64,000 bases of DNA from Anaeromyxobacteraceae bacterium (GTDB taxonomy: Bacteria; Myxococcota; Myxococcia; Myxococcales; Anaeromyxobacteraceae), in the NCBI GenBank assembly GCA_047602405.1, contig JASGHJ010000002.1, positions 2,112,001 to 2,176,000 on the forward strand, written 5' to 3'. Below, one piece after another: positions 3,334 to 34,863 of the stretch. Position numbers and translations under genes: made by a program. The first letter of the stretch is position 1. Each line of letters begins with the position of its first letter. The notes under the pieces are model-generated. The model ran no database searches, had not been told where the DNA came from, and saw only the letters and a list, made by a program, of their open reading frames with translations.

Positions 3334-4246
3334 GTGTCCACCGACGACCGAGCCATCCTCCTCGTGCAGTGCCCCGACCGGTCCGGCATCGTCGCCGCGG
3401 TCTCGAGCTTCCTGTTCCGCCACGGCGCGAACATCCTCGACTTCGATCAGCACACCTCGGTCCCTCGACCCCGCGGCGACGAGGCCGCCGCCACGCCCGG
3501 AATGGCCGGCCAGGAAGGTCCTGTCTTCTTCACGCGCGTGGAGTTCGACACCGCGCGGATCGACCTGCCCCTCGACGACCTCGAGAAGGCCTTCGCCCTC
3601 GACGTCGCCCGCCCCTACGCGATGGACTGGCGGCTCTCCCGCGCCGGCAAGAAGAAGCGCATCGCGGTGCTCTGCTCCCGCCACGACCACGCGGTGCTGG
3701 AGCTCCTGTGGACCTGGCGCCGCGGCGAGCTCAACGGCGACGTCGTGCGGGTCATCTCGAACCACGAGGACCTGCGCGAGGCCACCGCGCCGTTCGGCGT
3801 CCCCTTCGACCACGTGCCGGTCACGCCCGCCACGAAGGAGGCGGCGGAGGCGCGGGTCTCGGCGCTCGTCGACGGCGAGGCCGACCTCCTCGTGCTCGCG
3901 CGCTACATGCAGATCCTCTCGCCCGCCCTGGTGGAGCGCTGGCGCGAGCGGATCATCAACATCCACCACTCCTTCCTCCCCGCCTTCGCCGGCGCGGACC
4001 CCTACCGGCAGGCGCACGAGCGCGGCGTGAAGATCGTCGGCGCGACGGCGCACTACGTGACGGCGGCGCTCGACGCCGGGCCGATCATCGACCAGGACGT
4101 GGCGCGGGTCAGCCACCGGGACTCGGTGGAGGATTCTCAAGCGCCTCGGTCGCGACCTCGAGCGGCGGGTCCTCGTCCGCGCCGTGCGCTGGCACTGCGA
4201 GGACCGCGTGCTCGTGCACGGGAACAAGACGGTCGTGTTCAGCTGA
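3334..4246 (+). CDS. purU: Formyltetrahydrofolate deformylase (apparent +1 frameshift at 4132-4136)
   Basis: ACT domain [47 protein letters not shown]-terminus [18 protein letters not shown] in the next frame. Confidence 0.93.
3462..3504 (-). repeat. Degenerate REP-like palindrome inserted in frame in purU
   Basis: Reverse complement CCGGGCGTGG-CGGCG..CGCCG-CGGGGTCGAGGG resembles the family consensus CCGAGCGTAG-stem-GGAGACGAGGG; coincides with the extra peptide [17 protein letters not shown]. Confidence 0.55.
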
Positions 4247-4250
4247 GCTT

Positions 4251-4298
4251 CATCCTTCGACTTCGGCCCGCTTCGCGGGCCTACGCTCAGGATGAGCG
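4251..4298 (-). repeat. GTAG-type REP element between convergent purU and terC
   Basis: Reverse complement CATCCTGAGCGTAG-GCCCGC-GAA-GCGGGC-CGAAGTCGAAGGATG; same architecture as copies at 37091, 57196 and 61476. Confidence 0.8.
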
Positions 4299-4303
4299 AA
4301 CGA

Positions 4304-5269
4304 TCAGGAGCGGCTCTCCACCGGCCTGCCGTCCGGCTGCGCCCGCGCCTCGTCCCGCGCGCTCCGCCAGAGCGAGTACGCGATCGACGCGCCGAGCAGC
4401 GAGACCACCACCCCGAGCGACACGAGCGCGTGCAGGTGCACGACCCCGGAGGCGAGCATCTTCGCGCCGATGAACACCAGCACCGCCGCGAGCCCCGCCT
4501 TCAGGTACGCGAACTTCCGGAGCAGCTGGGCCACCGCGAAGTAGAGCGACCGCAGGCCCAGGATCGCGAAGATGTTCGAGGTGAAGACGATGAAGGGGTC
4601 GAGGGTCACCCCGAAGATCGCCGGGATCGAGTCGAGGGCGAAGACGACGTCCGACACCTCGATGAGCACGAGCGCGAGGAGGAGCGGCGTCGCGACCCGC
4701 CGGCCGTGCTCCCGGAGGAAGAAGGCGTGCCCCTCCATGCGCGTGGTCGAGGGCACGATCCGGCGGAGGAGCCGGAAGGCGAAGCTCCGCTCCGGGCGGT
4801 GCTGCTCCTCCCCCTGGAGCCACAGCCGCAGCCCCGTCACCACGAGGAAGCCGCCGAAGACGTAGATGAGCGCGTGGAACCGCTGCAGGAGCGCGGAGCC
4901 GCCCACGATCATGAGCGCGCGCAGCACGAGCGCGGTGAGGATGCCCCAGAACAGCACCCGGTGCTGGACCTCGCGGGGGATGGCGAAGGTCGAGAAGATG
5001 ACGACGAAGACGAAGAGGTTGTCGACCGAGAGCGACTTCTCGATGAGGTAGCCGGTCAGGTACTCGACCGCGAGCGTGCCGCCGAAGCGCCACCACACGA
5101 AGGCGCCGAAGGCGAGCGCGAGCGCGATCCAGACCGCCGTCCACCCGAGCGCCTCGCGCGTCCGCACCACGTGGTCCCGGCGGTTGAACACGCCGAGATC
5201 GAGCGCGAGGAGCGCGAGGACGAGGAGGATGAAGCCTCCCCAGAGCAAGGGTGTGCCGACGGTCTCCAT
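4304..5269 (-). CDS. TerC/Alx-family membrane protein
   Basis: YLIEKSLSVDNLFVF, DVVFALDSIPAIF, TSNIFAILGLRSLYF; alternative GTG start at 5275. Confidence 0.95.
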   Translation of the reverse strand: METVGTPLLWGGFILLVLALLALDLGVFNRRDHVVRTREALGWTAVWIALALAFGAFVWWRFGGTLAVEYLTGYLIEKSLSVDNLFVFVVIFSTFAIPREVQHRVLFWGILTALVLRALMIVGGSALLQRFHALIYVFGGFLVVTGLRLWLQGEEQHRPERSFAFRLLRRIVPSTTRMEGHAFFLREHGRRVATPLLLALVLIEVSDVVFALDSIPAIFGVTLDPFIVFTSNIFAILGLRSLYFAVAQLLRKFAYLKAGLAAVLVFIGAKMLASGVVHLHALVSLGVVVSLLGASIAYSLWRSARDEARAQPDGRPVESRS

Positions 5270-25769: not shown

Positions 25770-27007
25770 GCCTCGCGGTCCTCCTCCCCGCGGTCACCCT
25801 CGCCCACGAGGGCGAGGTCCACGCCGCCGCGGCCCGCACCTCCTCCGCGGTGGAGGGCCTCGCCCTCGCGGTGCTCGCGGCCGCGGGGCTCCTCTACCTC
25901 GCCGGGCTGCGCGCGCGCTGGCGCGCGCGGACCGCGGGGCACACCGCCCTCGCGCTCGAGGGGCTCGCGTACGGCGCCGGGCTCGTCGCCCTCGCGGCGG
26001 CGCTCGCCCCGCCGCTCGACCGGGCCGCCGCGGCGGGCTTCGCCGCGCACATGGCCCAGCACCAGCTGCTGCTCCTCGTCGCGCCGCCGCTCCTCGTCCT
26101 CGGCCGCCCGCACCTCGCCGCGCTCGCCGCGCTGCGGCCTGGCCCCCGGCTGCGCCTCGCGGCGCTGCTCCGGCGCCCCGCGGTCCGCGGCCCCTGGCGC
26201 GTCCTCGCGTCGGCGCCCGGCGCCGCCGCGCTGCACGCCGGGGCGCTCTGGCTCTGGCACGCGCCGGAGGCCTGGGGCCTCGCGCTCGCGCACCCCTGGC
26301 TGCACGGGGTGCAGCACCTCACGTTCTTCGCGACGGCGCTCCTCTTCTGGTGGGCCATGATCCTCGGGCGCTTCGGCCGCGCCGGCTACGGAGCCGCGGT
26401 CGTCTACGTCTTCGCGACCGCCGTCCACACCGGGGCGCTCGGCGCGCTCCTCACCTTCGCGCGGGCGCCCTGGTACCCCGACAACGCCGGCGCCCGCGAC
26501 GCCGCCGCGACGCTCGCCGACCAGCAACTCGGAGGGCTCGTCATGTGGATCCCGTCCGGCCTCTACCTCACGCTCCTCGGGCTCGCGCTGCTCGCGGCCT
26601 GGCTCGGCGACCTCGAGCGCCGGGCCTCCCGGGCGCCGCTCGCGCTGCTCCTCGCGGCCGTCCTCGGCACCGCCGCGGGGTGCACGGGCACCGGGCGCGC
26701 CCAGGACGAGGCCCGGCGGCTGACCGGAGGCGACCCGGAGCGCGGCCGGGCGGCGCTGCGCGGCCGCGGCTGCGTCGCGTGCCACACCGTGCCCGGGGTC
26801 CCTGGCGCCGGGAAGGTCGGGCCGTCACTCCAGGGCCTCGCGACCCGCAGCTACCTCGCCGGTCGCCTGCCGAACACGCCGGGCAACCTCGTCCGCTGGA
26901 TCCGGACGCCGCGGGAGGTGGATCCCCGGACCGCGATGCCGGACCTCGGCGTGGGCGAGGCCGAGGCGCGCGACATCGCGGCCTACCTCTACTCCCTGCG
27001 CGAGTGA
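25754..27007 (+). CDS. CtaG-type (caa3) oxidase assembly protein fused to a cytochrome c domain
   Basis: AHMAQH, LWLWHAP, QHLTFF, DQQLGGLVMWIP, then GCVACH..TAMP. Confidence 0.85.
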   Translation: MRRLLSLAVLLPAVTLAHEGEVHAAAARTSSAVEGLALAVLAAAGLLYLAGLRARWRARTAGHTALALEGLAYGAGLVALAAALAPPLDRAAAAGFAAHMAQHQLLLLVAPPLLVLGRPHLAALAALRPGPRLRLAALLRRPAVRGPWRVLASAPGAAALHAGALWLWHAPEAWGLALAHPWLHGVQHLTFFATALLFWWAMILGRFGRAGYGAAVVYVFATAVHTGALGALLTFARAPWYPDNAGARDAAATLADQQLGGLVMWIPSGLYLTLLGLALLAAWLGDLERRASRAPLALLLAAVLGTAAGCTGTGRAQDEARRLTGGDPERGRAALRGRGCVACHTVPGVPGAGKVGPSLQGLATRSYLAGRLPNTPGNLVRWIRTPREVDPRTAMPDLGVGEAEARDIAAYLYSLRE

Positions 27008-28020
27008 GCCTTCGCGCTGGCCGCGGGCGCGACCGAGACGCCCCAGGGCGACCGGCCCGCCGCCACCCGCCGCAGCACCGCGCCGCTGCCCGCGTCCAGC
27101 ACCGCGACGTCGTCGGAGGGTCCGCCCGCCACGTACAGCTTCTTCCCGTCGGGCGTGACCGCGATGCCCCACGGACGCGCCCCCACGTCGCGGACCGTCC
27201 GCAGCACCGCACGCCGCGCGAGGTCGACGAACGCCACCCCGCCGCCGCGGCCGGTGGCGACGTAGAGGGTCCCGCCGTCCGGCGAGACCGCGAGCCCCAT
27301 CGGGCGCGCCGGCGGCGGGAGCGCGACGTCGCCGAGCGCCTGGCGTGCGCCGGCGTCGATCACCGTGACGGAGCCGCCGTTCTCCGCGCTGACGAGCGCG
27401 AGCCGACCCCCGGGCCCGAAGACGACGGCCCGCGGGCGCGCCCCGGTGCGGATGCGCGCGAGCTCGTGCCGGGACGCGACGTCCAGCACCGCGACGTGGT
27501 CGCCCGCCTCGCTGGTGACCCAGACCGTCTTCCCGTCGGGCGCCGTCGTGACGCCCTCCGGCTCCTCGCCGACCGGCACCGAGCCGAGCGCGCGCCCCCG
27601 GGCGACGTCCACGAAGGTCGCCTCGCCGGTCTCCTCGTTCGAGACCACGAGCACGCCATCCGCGGCGAGGTCGAACGCCTCCGGATCCCGTCCCGCCGCG
27701 ATCGTCCGCAGGAGCCGGCGGGAGGCGAGATCCACCACGGCGATGCCGTCCGCGGCGCGGTCGGCCGCGGCGACGCCCGGGGCGCCGCCGCCCGGCCTCG
27801 ACGGCGGCGAGCCGGACACCGCGACGTACGCGAGCTTCCCGTCCGGCGAGACCCTCACCCCACGCGGCCGCCTCCCGACCGGCACGGTCGCGACGACCGC
27901 GTCCGTGGCGGTGTCGATGAGGGTCACGTCCCCCGAGCCCTCGTTCGTGACGACCGCGAGCGGTGAGGGACTCGGAGCCGCGAGGACGAGCGCGACGACG
28001 AAGGAGAGCAGGAACGACAT
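26989..28020 (-). CDS. YVTN beta-propeller protein (PQQ-catabolism-associated type)
   Basis: Repeats VTNEGSGDVTLID, VGRRPRGV, PDGKTVWVT. Confidence 0.85.
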   Translation of the reverse strand: MSFLLSFVVALVLAAPSPSPLAVVTNEGSGDVTLIDTATDAVVATVPVGRRPRGVRVSPDGKLAYVAVSGSPPSRPGGGAPGVAAADRAADGIAVVDLASRRLLRTIAAGRDPEAFDLAADGVLVVSNEETGEATFVDVARGRALGSVPVGEEPEGVTTAPDGKTVWVTSEAGDHVAVLDVASRHELARIRTGARPRAVVFGPGGRLALVSAENGGSVTVIDAGARQALGDVALPPPARPMGLAVSPDGGTLYVATGRGGGVAFVDLARRAVLRTVRDVGARPWGIAVTPDGKKLYVAGGPSDDVAVLDAGSGAVLRRVAAGRSPWGVSVAPAASAKAHSRRE

Positions 28021-28137
28021 CGCGGGGCCTCCCTGGCAGTCGCAAGGTGGAGGTGGACCGGCCCTGCGGCCAGGCGCCCCCCGGGGTGGCCGTCAGGGGC
28101 CTTCCACCCGACCGGGAAGCCGGGCATCTCTACCGGG

Positions 28138-30183
28138 GTGTTCGTCCCCGTCCTGGTCACCGCGGTCGCGCTGTCGGCCGCTCCCGAGGGCGAGCCGGTC
28201 GAGCCGGCCGTGCTGCCCGAGCAGGTGGTCGTCACGGGCACCCGCTCGCCGCGCCCCACCTCTTCCCTGCCCACCACCGTCGAGGTGCTGGAGGGCGAGG
28301 CCGTGCGGGGCTCCGGGGCCACCACCGCGGACGCGGCCCTGCGCCAGGTGCCCTCGTTCCAGACCTTCCGCCGGTCCTCGAGCCTCGCGGCGGACCCCTC
28401 GTCGCAGGGGCTCGCGCTCCGCGGCGTCGGCCCCTCCGCGGTCTCCCGCGCGCTGCTCCTCGACGACGGGGTCCCCGCGAACGATCCGTTCGGCGGCTGG
28501 GTCGCCTGGCGCTCCGTGCCGCGGCTCGGGCTCGACCGCGTGGAGGTCGCCCCGGGCGGCGCCTCGGCGCTCTACGGGAGCCAGGCGCTCGGCGGCGTGG
28601 TGGCCCTCGTGCCGCGGCCCATTCCCGAGGGCGCCACCCTCGAGGCCGAGTCGTCGGGCGGCGCGCTCGGCACCGCCGCCGGCGCGCTCCTCGGCACGGC
28701 GCGCGCCGGGCCGCTCGGAGTCTCCCTCGAGGGCGATGCGCTCAGGACCGACGGCTACCGGGTGGTCGCGCCGGCGTCGGCGGGGGCCATCGACGGGCGC
28801 GCGGGCGCGGACCACGCGACCGGGACGCTCCGCCTGCGCTGGGACGCGGCGCCGGACCTCGCGGTGACCGCCGGCGCGGGCGCCTTCGCCGAGGACCAGG
28901 ACGGCGGCACCCGCTACACGCGCAGCGCCGCGCGCGCCCTCACCGGCCGGCTCGGCGCGGTGTGGTCCGGCGAGGCCGGCCGGCTCGAGGCGCTCGGGTG
29001 GGTGGCCGGCCGGACCTTCACCCAGGACCGCACGCGCGCGCTCGCCGGGCGCAGCGACGAGGAGCTGGCGGCGCGGCAGCGGGTCCCGTCGCGCGATCTC
29101 GGCGGCTCGCTCGTGCTCGCGCCCTCCACGGGTGGCGGCCACGCGCCCGCGGTCGGGCTGGACGTGCGGCGCGTGTCCGGGGAGGCGGGCGAGGACGTCT
29201 TCCCGGCGGCGGGCGCGCCGTCCACGGCGACCGTCCGACGCGACGCGCGGGGCGCGCAGGTGCTCGCGGGCGTGTTCGCGGAGGACGCGCTGCGGCTCGG
29301 GGAGGCGCTCGAGGTCGCGGCCGCGCTCCGGCTCGACGCCTGGCGCAACGCGCCCGCCACGACCTCGCGCACCGCCGCGGACGGCACGGTCGAGACCACC
29401 CGGCACGCCTCGCGGGCGGACGCGCAGCTCTCCCCGCGGCTCGCGGTGCGCTACCGGCCCCACCCGGCGCTCACGCTGCGCGCCTCGGCCTACCGCGCCT
29501 TCCGGGCGCCGACGCTGAACGAGCTCTACCGGACGTTCCAGGTGGGGACGATCGTCACCGCGCCCGAGCCCGCCCTGCGGGCCGAGACGCTCACCGGCGC
29601 CGAGGCCGGGCCGGAGCTGCGGCTCCCCGGGGCGCTCCGCGCCCGCCTCACCGGCTGGTGGAGCGTGCTCGACGATCCCGCGACCATCGTGACGCTCGCG
29701 GCGCCACTGCCGGACGGCGCGACCCGCCAGCGCGCGAACCTCGGGCGGCTGCGGATCCGCGGGCTCGAGTCCTCGCTCGCGTGGGGCGAGGCGGGGCCGC
29801 TCGCGGCCTCGGTCGCGTACACGCTCGCCGACGCCCGCGTGGTCTCCGCGCCGGGCCACGAGGAGCTCGTGGGCTCGAGGCCGCCGCAGGATCCGGTGCA
29901 CCGCGTGGCGGGGAGCGTCCGCGCGGGGGTGGGCCGCGTGCGCGGGCAGGTCGACGTCGCCTGGAGCTCCGGGCAGTGGGAGGACGACCGGAACACGCTC
30001 AGGATCGCGGGCGCGGCGGTCGTGGACGCGTCCGTGGCCGTGCGGGTGGGCGGCGGAATGGAGCTGTTTGGAGCGGCGGAGAACCTGCTCGACCGCAGGT
30101 ACCTCGTCGGACGCGCGGGGATCGATACGGTGGGGGCGCCGAGGTTGATCCGGGTGGGGTTGAGGATCGTGGCTGGAAGGTGA
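28138..30183 (+). CDS. TonB-dependent receptor
   Basis: TonB box VVVTGTR; plug DGVPANDPFGGW, GGASALYGS..LGGV; FRAPTLNELYR; ENLLDRRY. Confidence 0.9.
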   Translation: MFVPVLVTAVALSAAPEGEPVEPAVLPEQVVVTGTRSPRPTSSLPTTVEVLEGEAVRGSGATTADAALRQVPSFQTFRRSSSLAADPSSQGLALRGVGPSAVSRALLLDDGVPANDPFGGWVAWRSVPRLGLDRVEVAPGGASALYGSQALGGVVALVPRPIPEGATLEAESSGGALGTAAGALLGTARAGPLGVSLEGDALRTDGYRVVAPASAGAIDGRAGADHATGTLRLRWDAAPDLAVTAGAGAFAEDQDGGTRYTRSAARALTGRLGAVWSGEAGRLEALGWVAGRTFTQDRTRALAGRSDEELAARQRVPSRDLGGSLVLAPSTGGGHAPAVGLDVRRVSGEAGEDVFPAAGAPSTATVRRDARGAQVLAGVFAEDALRLGEALEVAAALRLDAWRNAPATTSRTAADGTVETTRHASRADAQLSPRLAVRYRPHPALTLRASAYRAFRAPTLNELYRTFQVGTIVTAPEPALRAETLTGAEAGPELRLPGALRARLTGWWSVLDDPATIVTLAAPLPDGATRQRANLGRLRIRGLESSLAWGEAGPLAASVAYTLADARVVSAPGHEELVGSRPPQDPVHRVAGSVRAGVGRVRGQVDVAWSSGQWEDDRNTLRIAGAAVVDASVAVRVGGGMELFGAAENLLDRRYLVGRAGIDTVGAPRLIRVGLRIVAGR

Positions 30184-30269: not shown

Positions 30270-32120
<1,851 letters not shown>

Positions 32121-32172
32121 GGGCCCGGCATCCTAGCCCCGGCCCGGCCCCCCGGCCAGCGTGCGGGCGAGC

Positions 32173-32352
32173 CTAAGAGCTGTCCCATAAGTCCCGCTTG
32201 AGGTTGTGAAGGACGGAGACAGCGGCCACGGTGTCCGCGAGGTAGCGGCCGCGTCGGCGGTGCGGGAAGCATGCGCCGGAGCGAGCGAGGTCGCGCCAGG
32301 GGAGGGCCGCGAGGACGAGCAGTCGGTGAGACGAGATGAGGTATGCAGGCAC
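32173..32352 (-). pseudogene. Internally deleted IS5-family (DDE_Tnp_4-like) transposase remnant, 59 codons
   Basis: Manual translation VPAYLISSHRLLVLAALPWRDLARSGACFPHRRRGRYLADTVAAVSVLHNLKRDLWDSS*; RRRG..LHNL resembles IS5/ISL2-type C-termini; ends in the left TIR. Confidence 0.6.
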
Positions 32353-34375
32353 GGCACCCTGGAATCTCGGGCGGTGCCTCGGTTCGCGCGAGGGCTGGGC
32401 CTGAACGCCCTGTCAGGGGTTTGGCGTAGCGTGAAGATGTGAAAGTCGAGGCCAAGCGGACCCGCGGTCCGAACCGTCAGGAGCCCTGGGCGCGCCGCCC
32501 CGAGGACGGCGTGTCGGTCCTGCGGCTCGCGCTCGACGTCCGCGATCCCCTGCAGCGCAGGCGGCTCGAGCGGATGTTCTCGGACGCGTACCGGGTGCGG
32601 CGGGCGCTGCAGCGGGCAGCCCGCAGCCGCGCGCGGGCCTACTGGGCGGCGAGGCACGAACGGGCCCGGGACGGCGCGGGCACGCGCGACCGGCTCGGCC
32701 TGAGCCGCGACGCGCTCGAACACGCCGCCTACGCCTGCCTCGACGCGGCGCCTCACCTCCGGCGTTTCGTCACGAAGGCGCTCGCGATGCACCTCGCCGA
32801 CTCCGTCTGGTCGGCGGTGGAGCGGCACGTGTTCACCGACGCGACCGGGAAGCGTCAGGGGCTGCTCCACGTCGGGCGGTGGTTGGACTTTCGGAGGCTG
32901 CCCGGCCGAGCGCGCTCCCATACGAAGGAACGGAAGTGGGAGACCTTCCGGCTCCACGGCTCGCTCGGCGGTCATCGTGAGGCCGCGTCTTCGGCTCCAA
33001 CCGGGCGCGTCGACTGGTGGGCCTACCAAGGTCCGCTGGTGCTCGTGTTCAGCGGGCTCGCCGACGGCACGCTGGTCCTCCCGGTGCGGCTGCCGTCCGC
33101 TCCCTGCAACCAGACCATCCTCGACTACTACCTCGCCGACCCGAGCCTCTGGCACAAGGTCGATGTCGTCCGTACCCGAGCGCCGCACGCGCCGGGCGGC
33201 TGGCGCTACGAGGCCCACCTGATGGTGCTGAAGGAGCCCTACGTCTCGCCCTCGACGAGGGCACGCCGGGCGGAGGTCGCCCTCGCCGAGGTGGACCGGG
33301 TAGCGGGGGTGGACGTCAACGTGTCGAACCTGACCGTCGCCTCCCAGCTGGCGGGAGGCAATCTTCGGCTCACGCGGATCGAGCGCGACGCGGCCACGAA
33401 GGAGCGGGACCGTGCCCGGGGACGCCGCGAGCGTCGCAGGCAGCGGGCTCTGGAGCGGTCACGCCGCGCCGCGAACCAGGAGCAGTACCGGCTCTCGAAG
33501 CGCCAGGAGAAGCGCGCCCGTCGGCGCGCCGCCGCTGGCCTTTCGCCGGTGGAGGTCATCCCCCAGGGCCCGCGGGTCGCGAGGTCCAACGGCGTGCCGC
33601 TCCAGGCCTACCGGCGCGAACGGCTCACGCACAGTCACCGGAGGCTCCGGGCGGAGGAGGTCGCCGACGCCGCTGCTGCTTCGCAGGCCCGACGGGACCG
33701 TGCCCGGCGGGTGGCCGCGGAGGTCGTCCGCACGCACGGCTACAAGCTCTTCGTCGAGGAAGGCTCCATCTCCGCCTGGGCGCGAAACTGGGGCCGCGGC
33801 GTCGCCGCTTTCACGCCGGGCCTGCTCGTCTCGGCCATCGACCGCGAGGCCCAGGCGGTTGCATCGGTCGCCGAGGTCGCGGGCGGCGTCGTCCGGATCC
33901 CCACCCGCACGACCACGCTCTCCCAGCGCTGCCCCTGCGGCGCCCACGTACCGAAGACGCTCGCCGACCGGGTCCACCGCTGCCCGCACTGTGGCCTCGA
34001 AGGTGACCGCGACGCCGTCTCCGCGGTGCTCTCGAGCTTCGTCGTGCTCGACGGCCCCGGCGAACCCGCTTCGGCGCGCGTCGACTACGCCGCCGCGAAC
34101 CGCGCCCGCCTCGAAGCCCAGCGCCTCCTCACTCCCGATCAGCCTCTCGGGTGGCAAGACACCCGGTCCGAGTCAAACGACCTCTTCGTCCGCGAGGCCA
34201 GTTGCCCCGCGTGGCGGACGTCCACACCGGCCTCGTCGCCGGTGGCTCGGCGAACGCCGGAACGGCCACAGGCCCTACCCGGAATGAGCCTCTCTTACGA
34301 GAGTCCACGTCCGAGCGGGCCCGATGGCGAACCGGCATGCCCCACTCGCCGATTGGCGAATTATGGGACAGCTCT
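32176..34375. mobile_element. Non-autonomous TIR-bounded IS carrying a tnpB-like gene and an IS5-like transposase remnant
   Basis: Perfect TIRs AGAGCTGTCCCATAA (32176-32190) / TTATGGGACAGCTCT (34361-34375); TA duplicated at 32174-75 and 34376-77; reconstructed empty site CTAG; more A/T-ending codons than neighbouring genes. Confidence 0.88.
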
Positions 34376-34378
34376 TAG
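32439..34378 (+). CDS. tnpB: Large TnpB/Cas12-like RuvC RNA-guided endonuclease (about 646 aa if a 1-nt deletion near 34255 is restored)
   Basis: RuvC-I AGVDVNV (D292), Arg-rich helix, RuvC-II LFVEE (E440), CPCG..CPHC zinc ribbon, RuvC-III DRDAVSA (D525); shifted frame ends ELWDSS-TAG at the right TIR. Confidence 0.85.
34145..34375 (+). ncRNA. Candidate omega/reRNA scaffold overlapping the tnpB 3' tail
   Basis: Stems 34148-53/34160-65, 34187-93/34214-20, 34225-31/34238-44, 34290-94/34299-303 and 34346-50/34355-59 lie between RuvC-III and the right end. Confidence 0.45.
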
Positions 34379-34602
34379 TGCGGGTGCCCGCGCCGGTCGT
34401 TCGCGAACAGGCCGGCGAAGTCGCGCGGCTGCTCGTGCACGCGGAACAGGCGGCACTTCTCGCAGGACCAGCTGTCCCAGTCGAGCTTCACGGCCACGTC
34501 GAGGCAACCGTCGTAGTGCAGGCAGTAGAGGTTGCGGTGCCCCTGGACGGTCGTCTCGGAGCGGATCAGCTGGAGGAGTGGAGTGGGGTTCGGTGATTCC
34601 AC
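34375..34602 (-). CDS. Small Cys-rich hypothetical protein (75 aa)
   Basis: AGGAG RBS then GTG 34602; HRNLYCLHYDGCLD..WSCEKC. Confidence 0.7.
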   Translation of the reverse strand: MESPNPTPLLQLIRSETTVQGHRNLYCLHYDGCLDVAVKLDWDSWSCEKCRLFRVHEQPRDFAGLFANDRRGHPH

Positions 34603-34863
34603 GAGCTGTCTCCTGGTCGTCGAGGAGTGCAACGGCCACTCGCTCGGACGATTCCCTGCCGGGGTGCGTCGGTGGTGTGCGCGCATGGTGTGTCGCGGCC
34701 CGGTGCGGGGGGAAGCCCCCAGCGGGGCGGCGCGGACGCGGCACCTACATGAGTCCCGTGTTCACGCGACCTTGCCTGGGCTGGGTCATCCTGGCTGTAT
34801 CCTTCTGGGACGCGCCCGGCAGCCCTGTTTGCTCCTCCCGAAGGACGCGGCAAAGGATCACGG

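What the first reader, a model, noticed from the sequence alone, without database searches (positions are those of the whole stretch)
32173..32352. Hidden 59-codon transposase remnant divergent from tnpB
Absent from the ORF track. The minus-strand reading VPAYLISSHRLLVLAALPWRDLAR..HRRRGRYLADTVAAVSVLHNLKRDLWDSS* looks like an N-terminus fused to an IS5/ISL2 (DDE_Tnp_4-like) C-terminus with the catalytic core deleted; the family match is from recall, not a search. It would identify the mobilising enzyme and make this copy non-autonomous while the nuclease is retained.
Basis: partly seen in the sequence, partly recalled or inferred. Interest (0 to 1): 0.75.

Follow-up and report, generated by a model that had tools for sequence, protein, structure and literature searches.

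The report
Gutted transposase beside a retained TnpB
The tiny reading frame is the leftover start and end of a jumping gene's cut-and-paste enzyme, whose middle was deleted; this shortened element kept its predicted RNA-guided nuclease and likely keeps moving by borrowing the enzyme from intact sister copies in the same genome, a pairing already listed in print.

Summary
Confirmed. Window 32173-32352 is the scar of an IS5-family (IS1373-like, DDE_Tnp_4) transposase with 581 nt deleted, which removes the HTH and all catalytic residues. Two full-length copies (262-265 aa) sit divergent from the same tnpB in this genome. 48 of 52 informative metagenome homologues show the same divergent pair. The element spans 32176-34375, has 15-bp TIRs and inserts at CTAG, duplicating TA; the empty site was seen in a congener.

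The 59-codon frame is not a gene: the deletion is out of frame, and a private 1-nt loss happens to close it. Two sister copies share the deletion junction, are 99.9% identical to each other and sit at different sites, so the deleted form likely moves in trans. Its TnpB stayed under purifying selection after the deletion (dN/dS 0.22). A covarying guide-RNA scaffold lies inside the tnpB tail. This copy's tnpB has its own tail frameshift.

DDE-borne TnpB with TIRs and solo derivatives is published (2023), and a 2026 review names ISL2 as a partner; I found no experimental test. The scan met this family before on other DNA (copy C here, two other genomes).

The parts
32174..32175 (.). Left TA target-site duplication. 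With the C at 32173 it supplies the TAG stop of the transposase frame; CTA is the predicted TAM.
   Evidence: Sequence; the empty site in G010 has a single CTAG
32176..32190 (+). Left terminal inverted repeat, 15 bp
   Evidence: (2 matches in the window, 0 in 100 shuffles)
32176..32262 (-). 3' 29 codons of the transposase (HRRRG...LWDSS), in frame, including the left TIR
   Evidence: 25/29 identical to the full-length transposase
32263..32280 (-). Six out-of-frame codons (SGACFP) between a private 1-nt deletion (at 32280/32281) and the 581-nt deletion junction (at 32262/32263)
   Evidence: relatives in two sequencing runs carry the extra base
32281..32352 (-). 5' remnant of the transposase (24 codons, in frame); the true start probably lay a few codons upstream
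32410..32438 (+). Family-conserved motif just upstream of the tnpB GTG; candidate leaderless promoter (inferred)
   Evidence: Alignment of 63 upstream regions; the sigma-70 scan found nothing
32439..34136 (+). TnpB folded core (about 566 aa): RuvC D292 (33312), E440 (33756), D525 (34011), zinc finger C498-C518
   Evidence: a model of sister copy A is confident over residues 20-566 and matches TnpB/Cas12f/Cas12m
34149..34377 (+). Predicted omega-RNA scaffold lying wholly inside the tnpB coding tail and ending in the right TIR plus duplicated TA. This copy lacks 1 nt at about 34253, in a linker, which frameshifts the tail.
   Evidence: Third-position conservation rises to about 0.7 from about 0.5; 26 of 39 pairs show compensatory change; tail disordered in the model
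34361..34375 (-). Right terminal inverted repeat, 15 bp
34376..34377 (.). Right TA target-site duplication; also recreates a TAA stop for the host gene at 34375-34686 (-)
34378..34395 (+). Predicted guide segment (host flank read through from the element); length and start are inferred
   Evidence: Inference from the TnpB/Fanzor model (PMC13565253 section 6.2)

Best explanation
The 59-codon frame is the pseudogene scar of an IS5-family (IS1373-like) DDE transposase that lost 581 nt of its middle, leaving a 2.2-kb TIR-bounded element that kept tnpB and its predicted guide RNA and likely moves with transposase supplied in trans by intact sister copies. Shown: the deletion, the intact relatives, the TIRs, the CTAG target with TA duplication, three deleted copies with the same junction at three sites, purifying selection on tnpB after the deletion, and a covarying RNA structure at the right end. 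Inferred: the transposase of copy C or D recognises the near-identical TIRs and cuts and pastes the element. A transcript running through the right end gives an RNA whose scaffold includes the duplicated TA and whose guide is the next host bases. TnpB would recognise a CTA(G) motif plus the guide match, which exists only at an element-free allele, cut it, and let recombination copy the element back. The remnant's 3' part persists because it is the left end; the peptide itself has no function.
For: Deletion: single 581-nt gap against copy C; 86% identity over the C-terminal 29 aa. Intact partners: copies C and D are the only 2 DDE_Tnp_4 genes in the genome; 48 of 52 metagenome loci with at least 800 nt upstream have the divergent transposase, 29 of them as one stop-free match; 3 of the 4 plasmid hits inspected (of 5 found) also have it. 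Movement after the deletion: window, A and B share the junction; A and B are 99.9% identical at unrelated sites; TIRs differ from C/D by 1 nt. Selection: tnpB window vs A dS 0.20, dN 0.045, dN/dS 0.22; the remnant diverged 12% with 2 indels, like the intergenic stretch (13%), against 4.5% in the RNA tail. Target: single CTAG at the empty site; 54 of 54 right ends read TTAG when anchored on the TIR core only. RNA: 95.3% of cells paired, 0/500 shuffles as high, slid controls 30-43%. Right-end last base is T in 59 of 59 distinct ends, while the left end tolerates the alternative in 9 of 45, as expected if the right junction must not look like the target or must pair within the RNA.
Against: No activity was measured: nuclease, TAM, guide and trans-mobilisation are all inferred. 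The window copy's tnpB has a 1-nt tail deletion that extends the frame to 1034 aa, so this copy may be impaired, or the base may be an assembly error. The proposed pseudoknot pairs never vary (no covariation) and so are unsupported. The window RNA alone folds only weakly better than shuffles (z -1.8). Restorative homing needs excision to regenerate one CTAG, which was not observed. The orthologous sites of copies A, B and C in G010 were too diverged to read, and one reciprocal site read CTAC. The deleted lineage is 15% diverged from C/D, so its original helper may have been another, now lost, copy.
Confidence: 0.85

Rival explanations
1. The 59-aa chimera is a selected mini-protein, for example a regulator of the full transposase, or a frame kept so that translation stops at the target TAG.
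For: The window copy and the A/B lineage each carry a different 1-nt deletion, on opposite sides of the same out-of-frame junction, and both end up with a 59-codon frame closing at the terminal TAG.
Against: The two peptides are only about 52% identical and differ in frame around the junction. An independent deletion derivative (L001) is out of frame, and another (L004) lacks the 5' part altogether. Remnant DNA diverges like intergenic DNA. Relatives in two runs carry the base the window lacks.
Confidence: 0.05
2. TnpB is kept for something other than cutting empty sites, for example protecting or assisting transposition, non-specific single-strand cutting, or RNA-guided binding.
For: Cut-and-paste excision already leaves a break, which makes restorative homing less useful for DDE elements (PMC13565253 section 6.2). 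Other roles are listed in PMC10691335. The protein is large, with Cas12m (a binder) among its top fold matches.
Against: Catalytic D/E/D is invariant in 86 aligned sequences. The family shows strict CTAG use, whereas stand-alone relatives also sit at TTA/GTA flanks, which fits a TAM tied to the target.
Confidence: 0.25
3. The window copy is a dead end: immobile, with a broken tnpB, merely decaying.
For: It has a private tail frameshift, it is 9% diverged from its nearest sisters, and it has no near-identical copy.
Against: Both TIRs are perfect, the TSD is intact, the RuvC residues are intact, and the site is empty in a congener 96% identical there. This rival concerns only this copy, not the lineage.
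Confidence: 0.3

Closest known systems
DDE-transposase-associated TnpB branches DDE-1 to DDE-6 (Altae-Tran et al. 2023, PMC10691335); partners named as ISL2, IS630 and IS1031 in PMC13565253
   Same: TnpB inside a TIR-bounded DDE element; solo or transposase-less copies with near-identical ends proposed to move in trans; RNA guide made at the transposon end.
   Different: I could not see Fig. 4, Additional Files 10/11 or Tables S1/S2, so cannot say which branch this is. The CTAG target, TA duplication, target-derived stops of both ORFs, RNA structure and selection after transposase loss are not described in the text I read.
IS1373-family IS5-like elements of Streptomyces (placement in the ISL2 group recalled from ISfinder, not from a call)
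   Same: Transposase 46% identical over 210 aa (E 3e-50); same TIR core and CTA..TAG flanks.
   Different: Stand-alone, about 0.85 kb, with its own stop codon before the TIR. Here a 2-kb tnpB/RNA cassette lies between the 5' TIR and the transposase, and both ORFs run into the TIRs and stop on the target TAG.
IS200/IS605 and IS607 TnpB-omegaRNA systems, IS1341-type solo tnpB elements (established knowledge); Cas12f/Cas12m folds
   Same: RuvC D/E/D plus zinc finger, TnpB/Cas12f fold; structured RNA overlapping the gene end; loss of the transposase with retention of tnpB.
   Different: Here the ends are symmetrical TIRs with a TSD, the enzyme is DDE, the folded core is larger (about 550 aa), and the scaffold is entirely within the ORF. 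NCBIfam TnpB models score below cut-off; no Rfam match.
Fanzor in eukaryotic DDE transposons (PMC13565253 section 6.2)
   Same: 5' TSD as part of the TAM and 3' TSD inside the RNA scaffold is the arrangement predicted here.
   Different: Prokaryotic TnpB, not Fanzor; the arrangement is predicted, not shown.

Membership tests
IS5 family (IS1373/ISL2-like) | DDE transposase of DDE_Tnp_4/DDE_Tnp_1 type with N-terminal HTH, about 260 aa | tested here: met
   Full-length sisters: DDE_Tnp_4 36.7-39.2 bits and DDE_Tnp_1 41-42 bits (both above cut-off); HTH_Tnp_4 22 bits (below its 27 cut-off). The window remnant lacks these parts.
IS5 family (IS1373/ISL2-like) | Passes an NCBIfam IS5 equivalog cut-off | tested here: not met
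   Best is NF033581 at 47.6 bits against a cut-off of 140. Family assignment therefore rests on Pfam, 46% identity to an annotated IS1373-family protein and the shared TIR.
IS5 family (IS1373/ISL2-like) | Short TIRs and a 2-3 bp target duplication (range recalled) | tested here: met
   15-bp TIRs; TA duplication at CTAG from the empty site
IS5 family, ISL2 group specifically | Clusters with ISfinder ISL2-group references | not testable with these tools
   No ISfinder set is on hand; the literature search for the group definition returned nothing
DDE-associated TnpB (DDE-1 to DDE-6) | TnpB cluster consistently within 1 kb of a DDE transposase, inside TIRs | tested here: met
   48 of 52 loci with enough upstream DNA; TIRs at both ends in loci with enough flank
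DDE-associated TnpB (DDE-1 to DDE-6) | Identity with one named branch | not testable with these tools
   Figure 4 and the sequence tables are not held
TnpB-omegaRNA (OMEGA) | TnpB fold with RuvC D/E/D and zinc finger | tested here: met
TnpB-omegaRNA (OMEGA) | Conserved structured RNA at the element end abutting a variable guide | tested here: met
   flanks vary beyond TAG
TnpB-omegaRNA (OMEGA) | 3' pseudoknot of the scaffold | tested here: inconclusive
   UGAG/CUUA can pair in 48-49 of 49 sequences but never covaries
TnpB-omegaRNA (OMEGA) | RNA expression, TAM-dependent guided cleavage | not testable with these tools
   Needs experiments
Non-autonomous deletion derivative | Ends intact, transposase disabled, same deletion at several sites, helper present | tested here: met

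The most novel reading that the evidence does not exclude
This is a bacterial cut-and-paste transposon that uses the Fanzor-like solution: its fixed CTAG target serves at once as target duplication, TAM, 3' end of the guide-RNA scaffold, stop codon for both of its own genes, and a harmless landing site on host stop codons. Transposase-less derivatives such as this one persist as RNA-guided homing parasites of the full element, which would show that TnpB alone gives a DDE element enough advantage to stay under selection.
Probability: 0.45. Interest if true: 0.6.

Novelty: new member of a known kind. Interest (0 to 1): 0.35.

Why it matters
The remnant itself is an ordinary deletion scar. Its value is that it ties a large (at least 921 clusters at 90% identity), apparently untested TnpB family to an IS5-type transposase. 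It also gives a natural experiment: tnpB stays under purifying selection after the transposase is gone. Whether and how TnpB benefits cut-and-paste elements in bacteria is left open in the 2023 survey and the 2026 review. Here TAM, scaffold and guide can all be read from the sequence, so the question is directly testable.

Tried and rejected
Pfam and NCBIfam scans of the 59-aa peptide: no hit; identification needed the genome's own full-length copies. Sequence search of PDB with the TnpB profile: 0 hits. Rfam on the element: 0. Sigma-70 promoter and terminator scan of 32100-32600: 0. Sequencing runs: no RNA holder listed, all shares at most 0.07; laying 4 of the 24 runs gave only fragments of relatives. 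Empty-site checks for copies A, B and C were uninformative, and the query for D found only paralogues. Pseudoknot covariation: none. Search for self-targets: no CTA-adjacent genomic match better than 3 mismatches in 16 for any of 6 predicted guides. One plasmid hit (L138, Streptomyces) had a similar right end but no transposase match within 2.5 kb. The LWDSS* ending was rejected as evidence of transposase identity because it is the translated TIR. A functional mini-peptide was considered and rejected (see rivals). Literature searches that found no experimental study of an IS5/ISL2-borne TnpB; subscription papers are mostly outside this library. One review sought for IS group definitions was not held.

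Full report
1. Observation. It lies at the left end of a 2200-bp element, 32176-34375, bounded by a perfect 15-bp inverted repeat found twice in the window and never in 100 shuffles. The peptide alone hits no Pfam or NCBIfam family. The large divergent ORF from 32439 hits Cas12f1-like_TNB and, below cut-off, guided_TnpB.

2. What the frame is. The genome holds six full-ended or nearly full-ended copies plus one right-end fragment. Copies C (C1:643907-646694) and D (C2:797492-801973) carry an uninterrupted 262-265-aa ORF in this position, with DDE_Tnp_4 and DDE_Tnp_1 above cut-off and a weak HTH_Tnp_4. They are the only 2 DDE_Tnp_4 matches in the genome. Against copy C the window has one 581-nt gap that removes the HTH and the whole D-D-E core; the last 29 aa are 25/29 identical. 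581 is not a multiple of three. The frame is open only because the window also lacks one base 18 nt before the junction, so codons 25-30 are out of frame. Contigs in two unrelated runs have that base. Copies A and B share the junction but have their own 1-nt loss after it. The remnant has diverged 12% with 2 indels between the window and A, like the intergenic stretch (13%), while the tnpB core diverged 8% and the RNA tail 4.5%. Two further deletion derivatives in another genome are out of frame (L001) or lack the 5' part (L004). So the frame is a scar, not a product.

3. Family. The TnpB search returned 921 clusters among 7989 candidates. A profile search gave 229 clusters at 50% identity with E up to 1e-30. 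7 of 201 related genomes match, this one included. Of 80 metagenome loci (the best 80 of 125 found), 52 have at least 800 nt upstream of tnpB; 48 of these have the divergent transposase, 29 as a single stop-free match. Of 5 plasmid hits I inspected 4: three (Euzebya, two mycobacteria) have the same divergent pair, one has no transposase nearby. The nearest named transposase is an IS1373-family IS5-like protein, 46% identical, with the same TIR core and CTA..TAG flanks. The NCBIfam IS5 model scores only 47.6 against a cut-off of 140.

4. Target. In congener G010 the same site is empty and reads one CTAG, against CTA[element]TAG here: a TA duplication. Of four reciprocal checks, two sites in this genome read CTAG, one read CTAC and one was not resolved. 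Anchoring on the TIR core only, 54 of 54 right ends continue TTAG; of 43 left ends, 29 read TTAG, 9 CTAG and 5 other. Both ORFs stop on the target's TAG: 103 of 120 TnpB proteins end in the TIR pentapeptide; 58 of 67 loci have tnpB in frame with it (one false end dropped); and 49 of 52 left ends by pattern have the transposase in frame. 6 of 6 copies here sit on the stop codon of a gene-like host frame, against 511 of 1073 CTAG sites genome-wide; 15 of 21 other loci do too, by a looser rule and without matched background. Insertion recreates a stop, so the host gene survives.

5. Movement and selection after the deletion. Window, A and B share one junction at three unrelated sites. A and B are 99.9% identical; the window is 91% identical to them and 85-86% to C, D and E. 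Their TIR differs from C/D's by one base. Because the window/A split postdates the deletion, their tnpB dN/dS of 0.22 (dS 0.20, 540 codons) shows the nuclease gene stayed under purifying selection without its own transposase. Other pairs give 0.17-0.29. Trans-mobilisation by C or D is inferred, not shown.

6. Nuclease and RNA. D292, E440, D525 and four zinc cysteines are present and invariant in 86 aligned sequences. An AlphaFold model of copy A (pLDDT 77.8) is ordered over residues 20-566 and disordered over 569-645. It matches AsCas12f, Cas12m and TnpB structures (best E 7e-11). In the tail, third-codon-position conservation rises from about 0.5 to about 0.7 (54 loci). An alignment of 49 tails gives 39 pairs, 26 with compensatory change, 95.3% of cells paired, no shuffle of 500 as high, and slid controls at 30-43%; the structure was derived from this alignment, which favours it. 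The last base of the right TIR is T in 59 of 59 distinct ends, while the left end has the alternative in 9 of 45 (Fisher p 3e-4, but kin are not independent). Among 12 stand-alone IS1373-like loci, the equivalent end was readable in 9 and has the alternative in 4. Either avoidance of a CTA motif at the filled junction or a pseudoknot with an invariant UGAG would explain this; the pseudoknot shows no covariation. The window copy has a private 1-nt loss at about 34253, in a linker of the RNA, so its ORF misses the terminal stop and runs to 1034 aa; A, B, C and E end normally and D is frameshifted earlier.

7. Mechanism. Shown: anatomy, deletion, target, selection, conserved RNA. Inferred: cut-and-paste by a helper transposase; a guide taken from the right flank; TAM CTA(G) with the 3' TA inside the scaffold, by analogy with Fanzor; cutting of element-free alleles and repair from a filled copy. 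I put about 0.99 on the remnant's identity, about 0.9 on movement in trans, and about 0.6 on homing as TnpB's role.

8. What is known. PMC10691335 (passages, section 9 whole, supplement PDF searched; Fig. 4, Additional Files and tables not visible) reports six DDE-associated TnpB branches, all with TIRs, and solo TnpBs with matching ends moved in trans. PMC13565253 (passages and section 6.2) names ISL2, IS630 and IS1031 as the partners and treats the benefit to DDE elements as uncertain. The unseen supplements may already list this family. Nine searches found no experimental study; other papers were seen only as listings. That IS1373 belongs to the ISL2 group is recalled. The scan's own notes show the same family followed up on copy C and in two other genomes; I saw these only after the analyses in sections 1-5 and most of section 6, and they are not independent support.

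9. Verdict. The object is an ordinary internal-deletion derivative of a published kind of element. The family remains a good experimental candidate. Interest 0.35; new member of a known kind.

Noticed in passing
window 30270-32120 (-): 616-aa peptidyl-dipeptidase of the M2 (ACE) family, Pfam E 4e-218, starting 55 nt from the element's left end.
   Followed up: partly
window 34375-34686 (-): 103-aa Cys-rich ORF with no Pfam hit, whose DNA matches in 37 of 37 genomes of the genus (a few only weakly), with a weaker second match in several. The element landed on its stop codon and restored it as TAA.
   Followed up: partly
L008:2492-3829 (G000:C2, copy D): An ISAs1-family transposase (NCBIfam above cut-off) is inserted between the IS5-type transposase and tnpB; this copy's tnpB is frameshifted before RuvC III.
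   Followed up: partly
L009 (G000:C2:2701496-2704165, copy E): Transposase broken by internal inversions and deletion while tnpB is intact: a second, independent loss in this genome.
   Followed up: partly
L012 (G000:C2:2661894 region, fragment F): Right-end fragment lacking most of the RNA scaffold; the only right end seen that ends in C, recreating CTAG at the junction.
   Followed up: partly
L007:716-1408 and 4195-4944: Copy C sits exactly between two convergent genes (signal-peptidase-like and TetR-like by inspection), apparently on the stop codons of both.
   Followed up: partly
L010:3770-3820 and L011 flanks: A roughly 50-bp repeat beside copies A and B has about 50 matches in G010; probably another dispersed repeat family of this genus.
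   Followed up: no
whole genome: CTAG is strongly under-represented: 1073 sites against about 4700 expected; about half are stop codons of gene-like frames.
   Followed up: partly
window 26989-30183: YncE-like beta-propeller gene divergent from a TonB-dependent receptor gene.
   Followed up: no
L136, L137, L139: The same transposase-tnpB pair on actinobacterial plasmids (Euzebya, two mycobacteria), with 43-49% TnpB identity, suggests transfer between phyla; in the two mycobacterial copies tnpB stops just before the TIR.
   Followed up: partly
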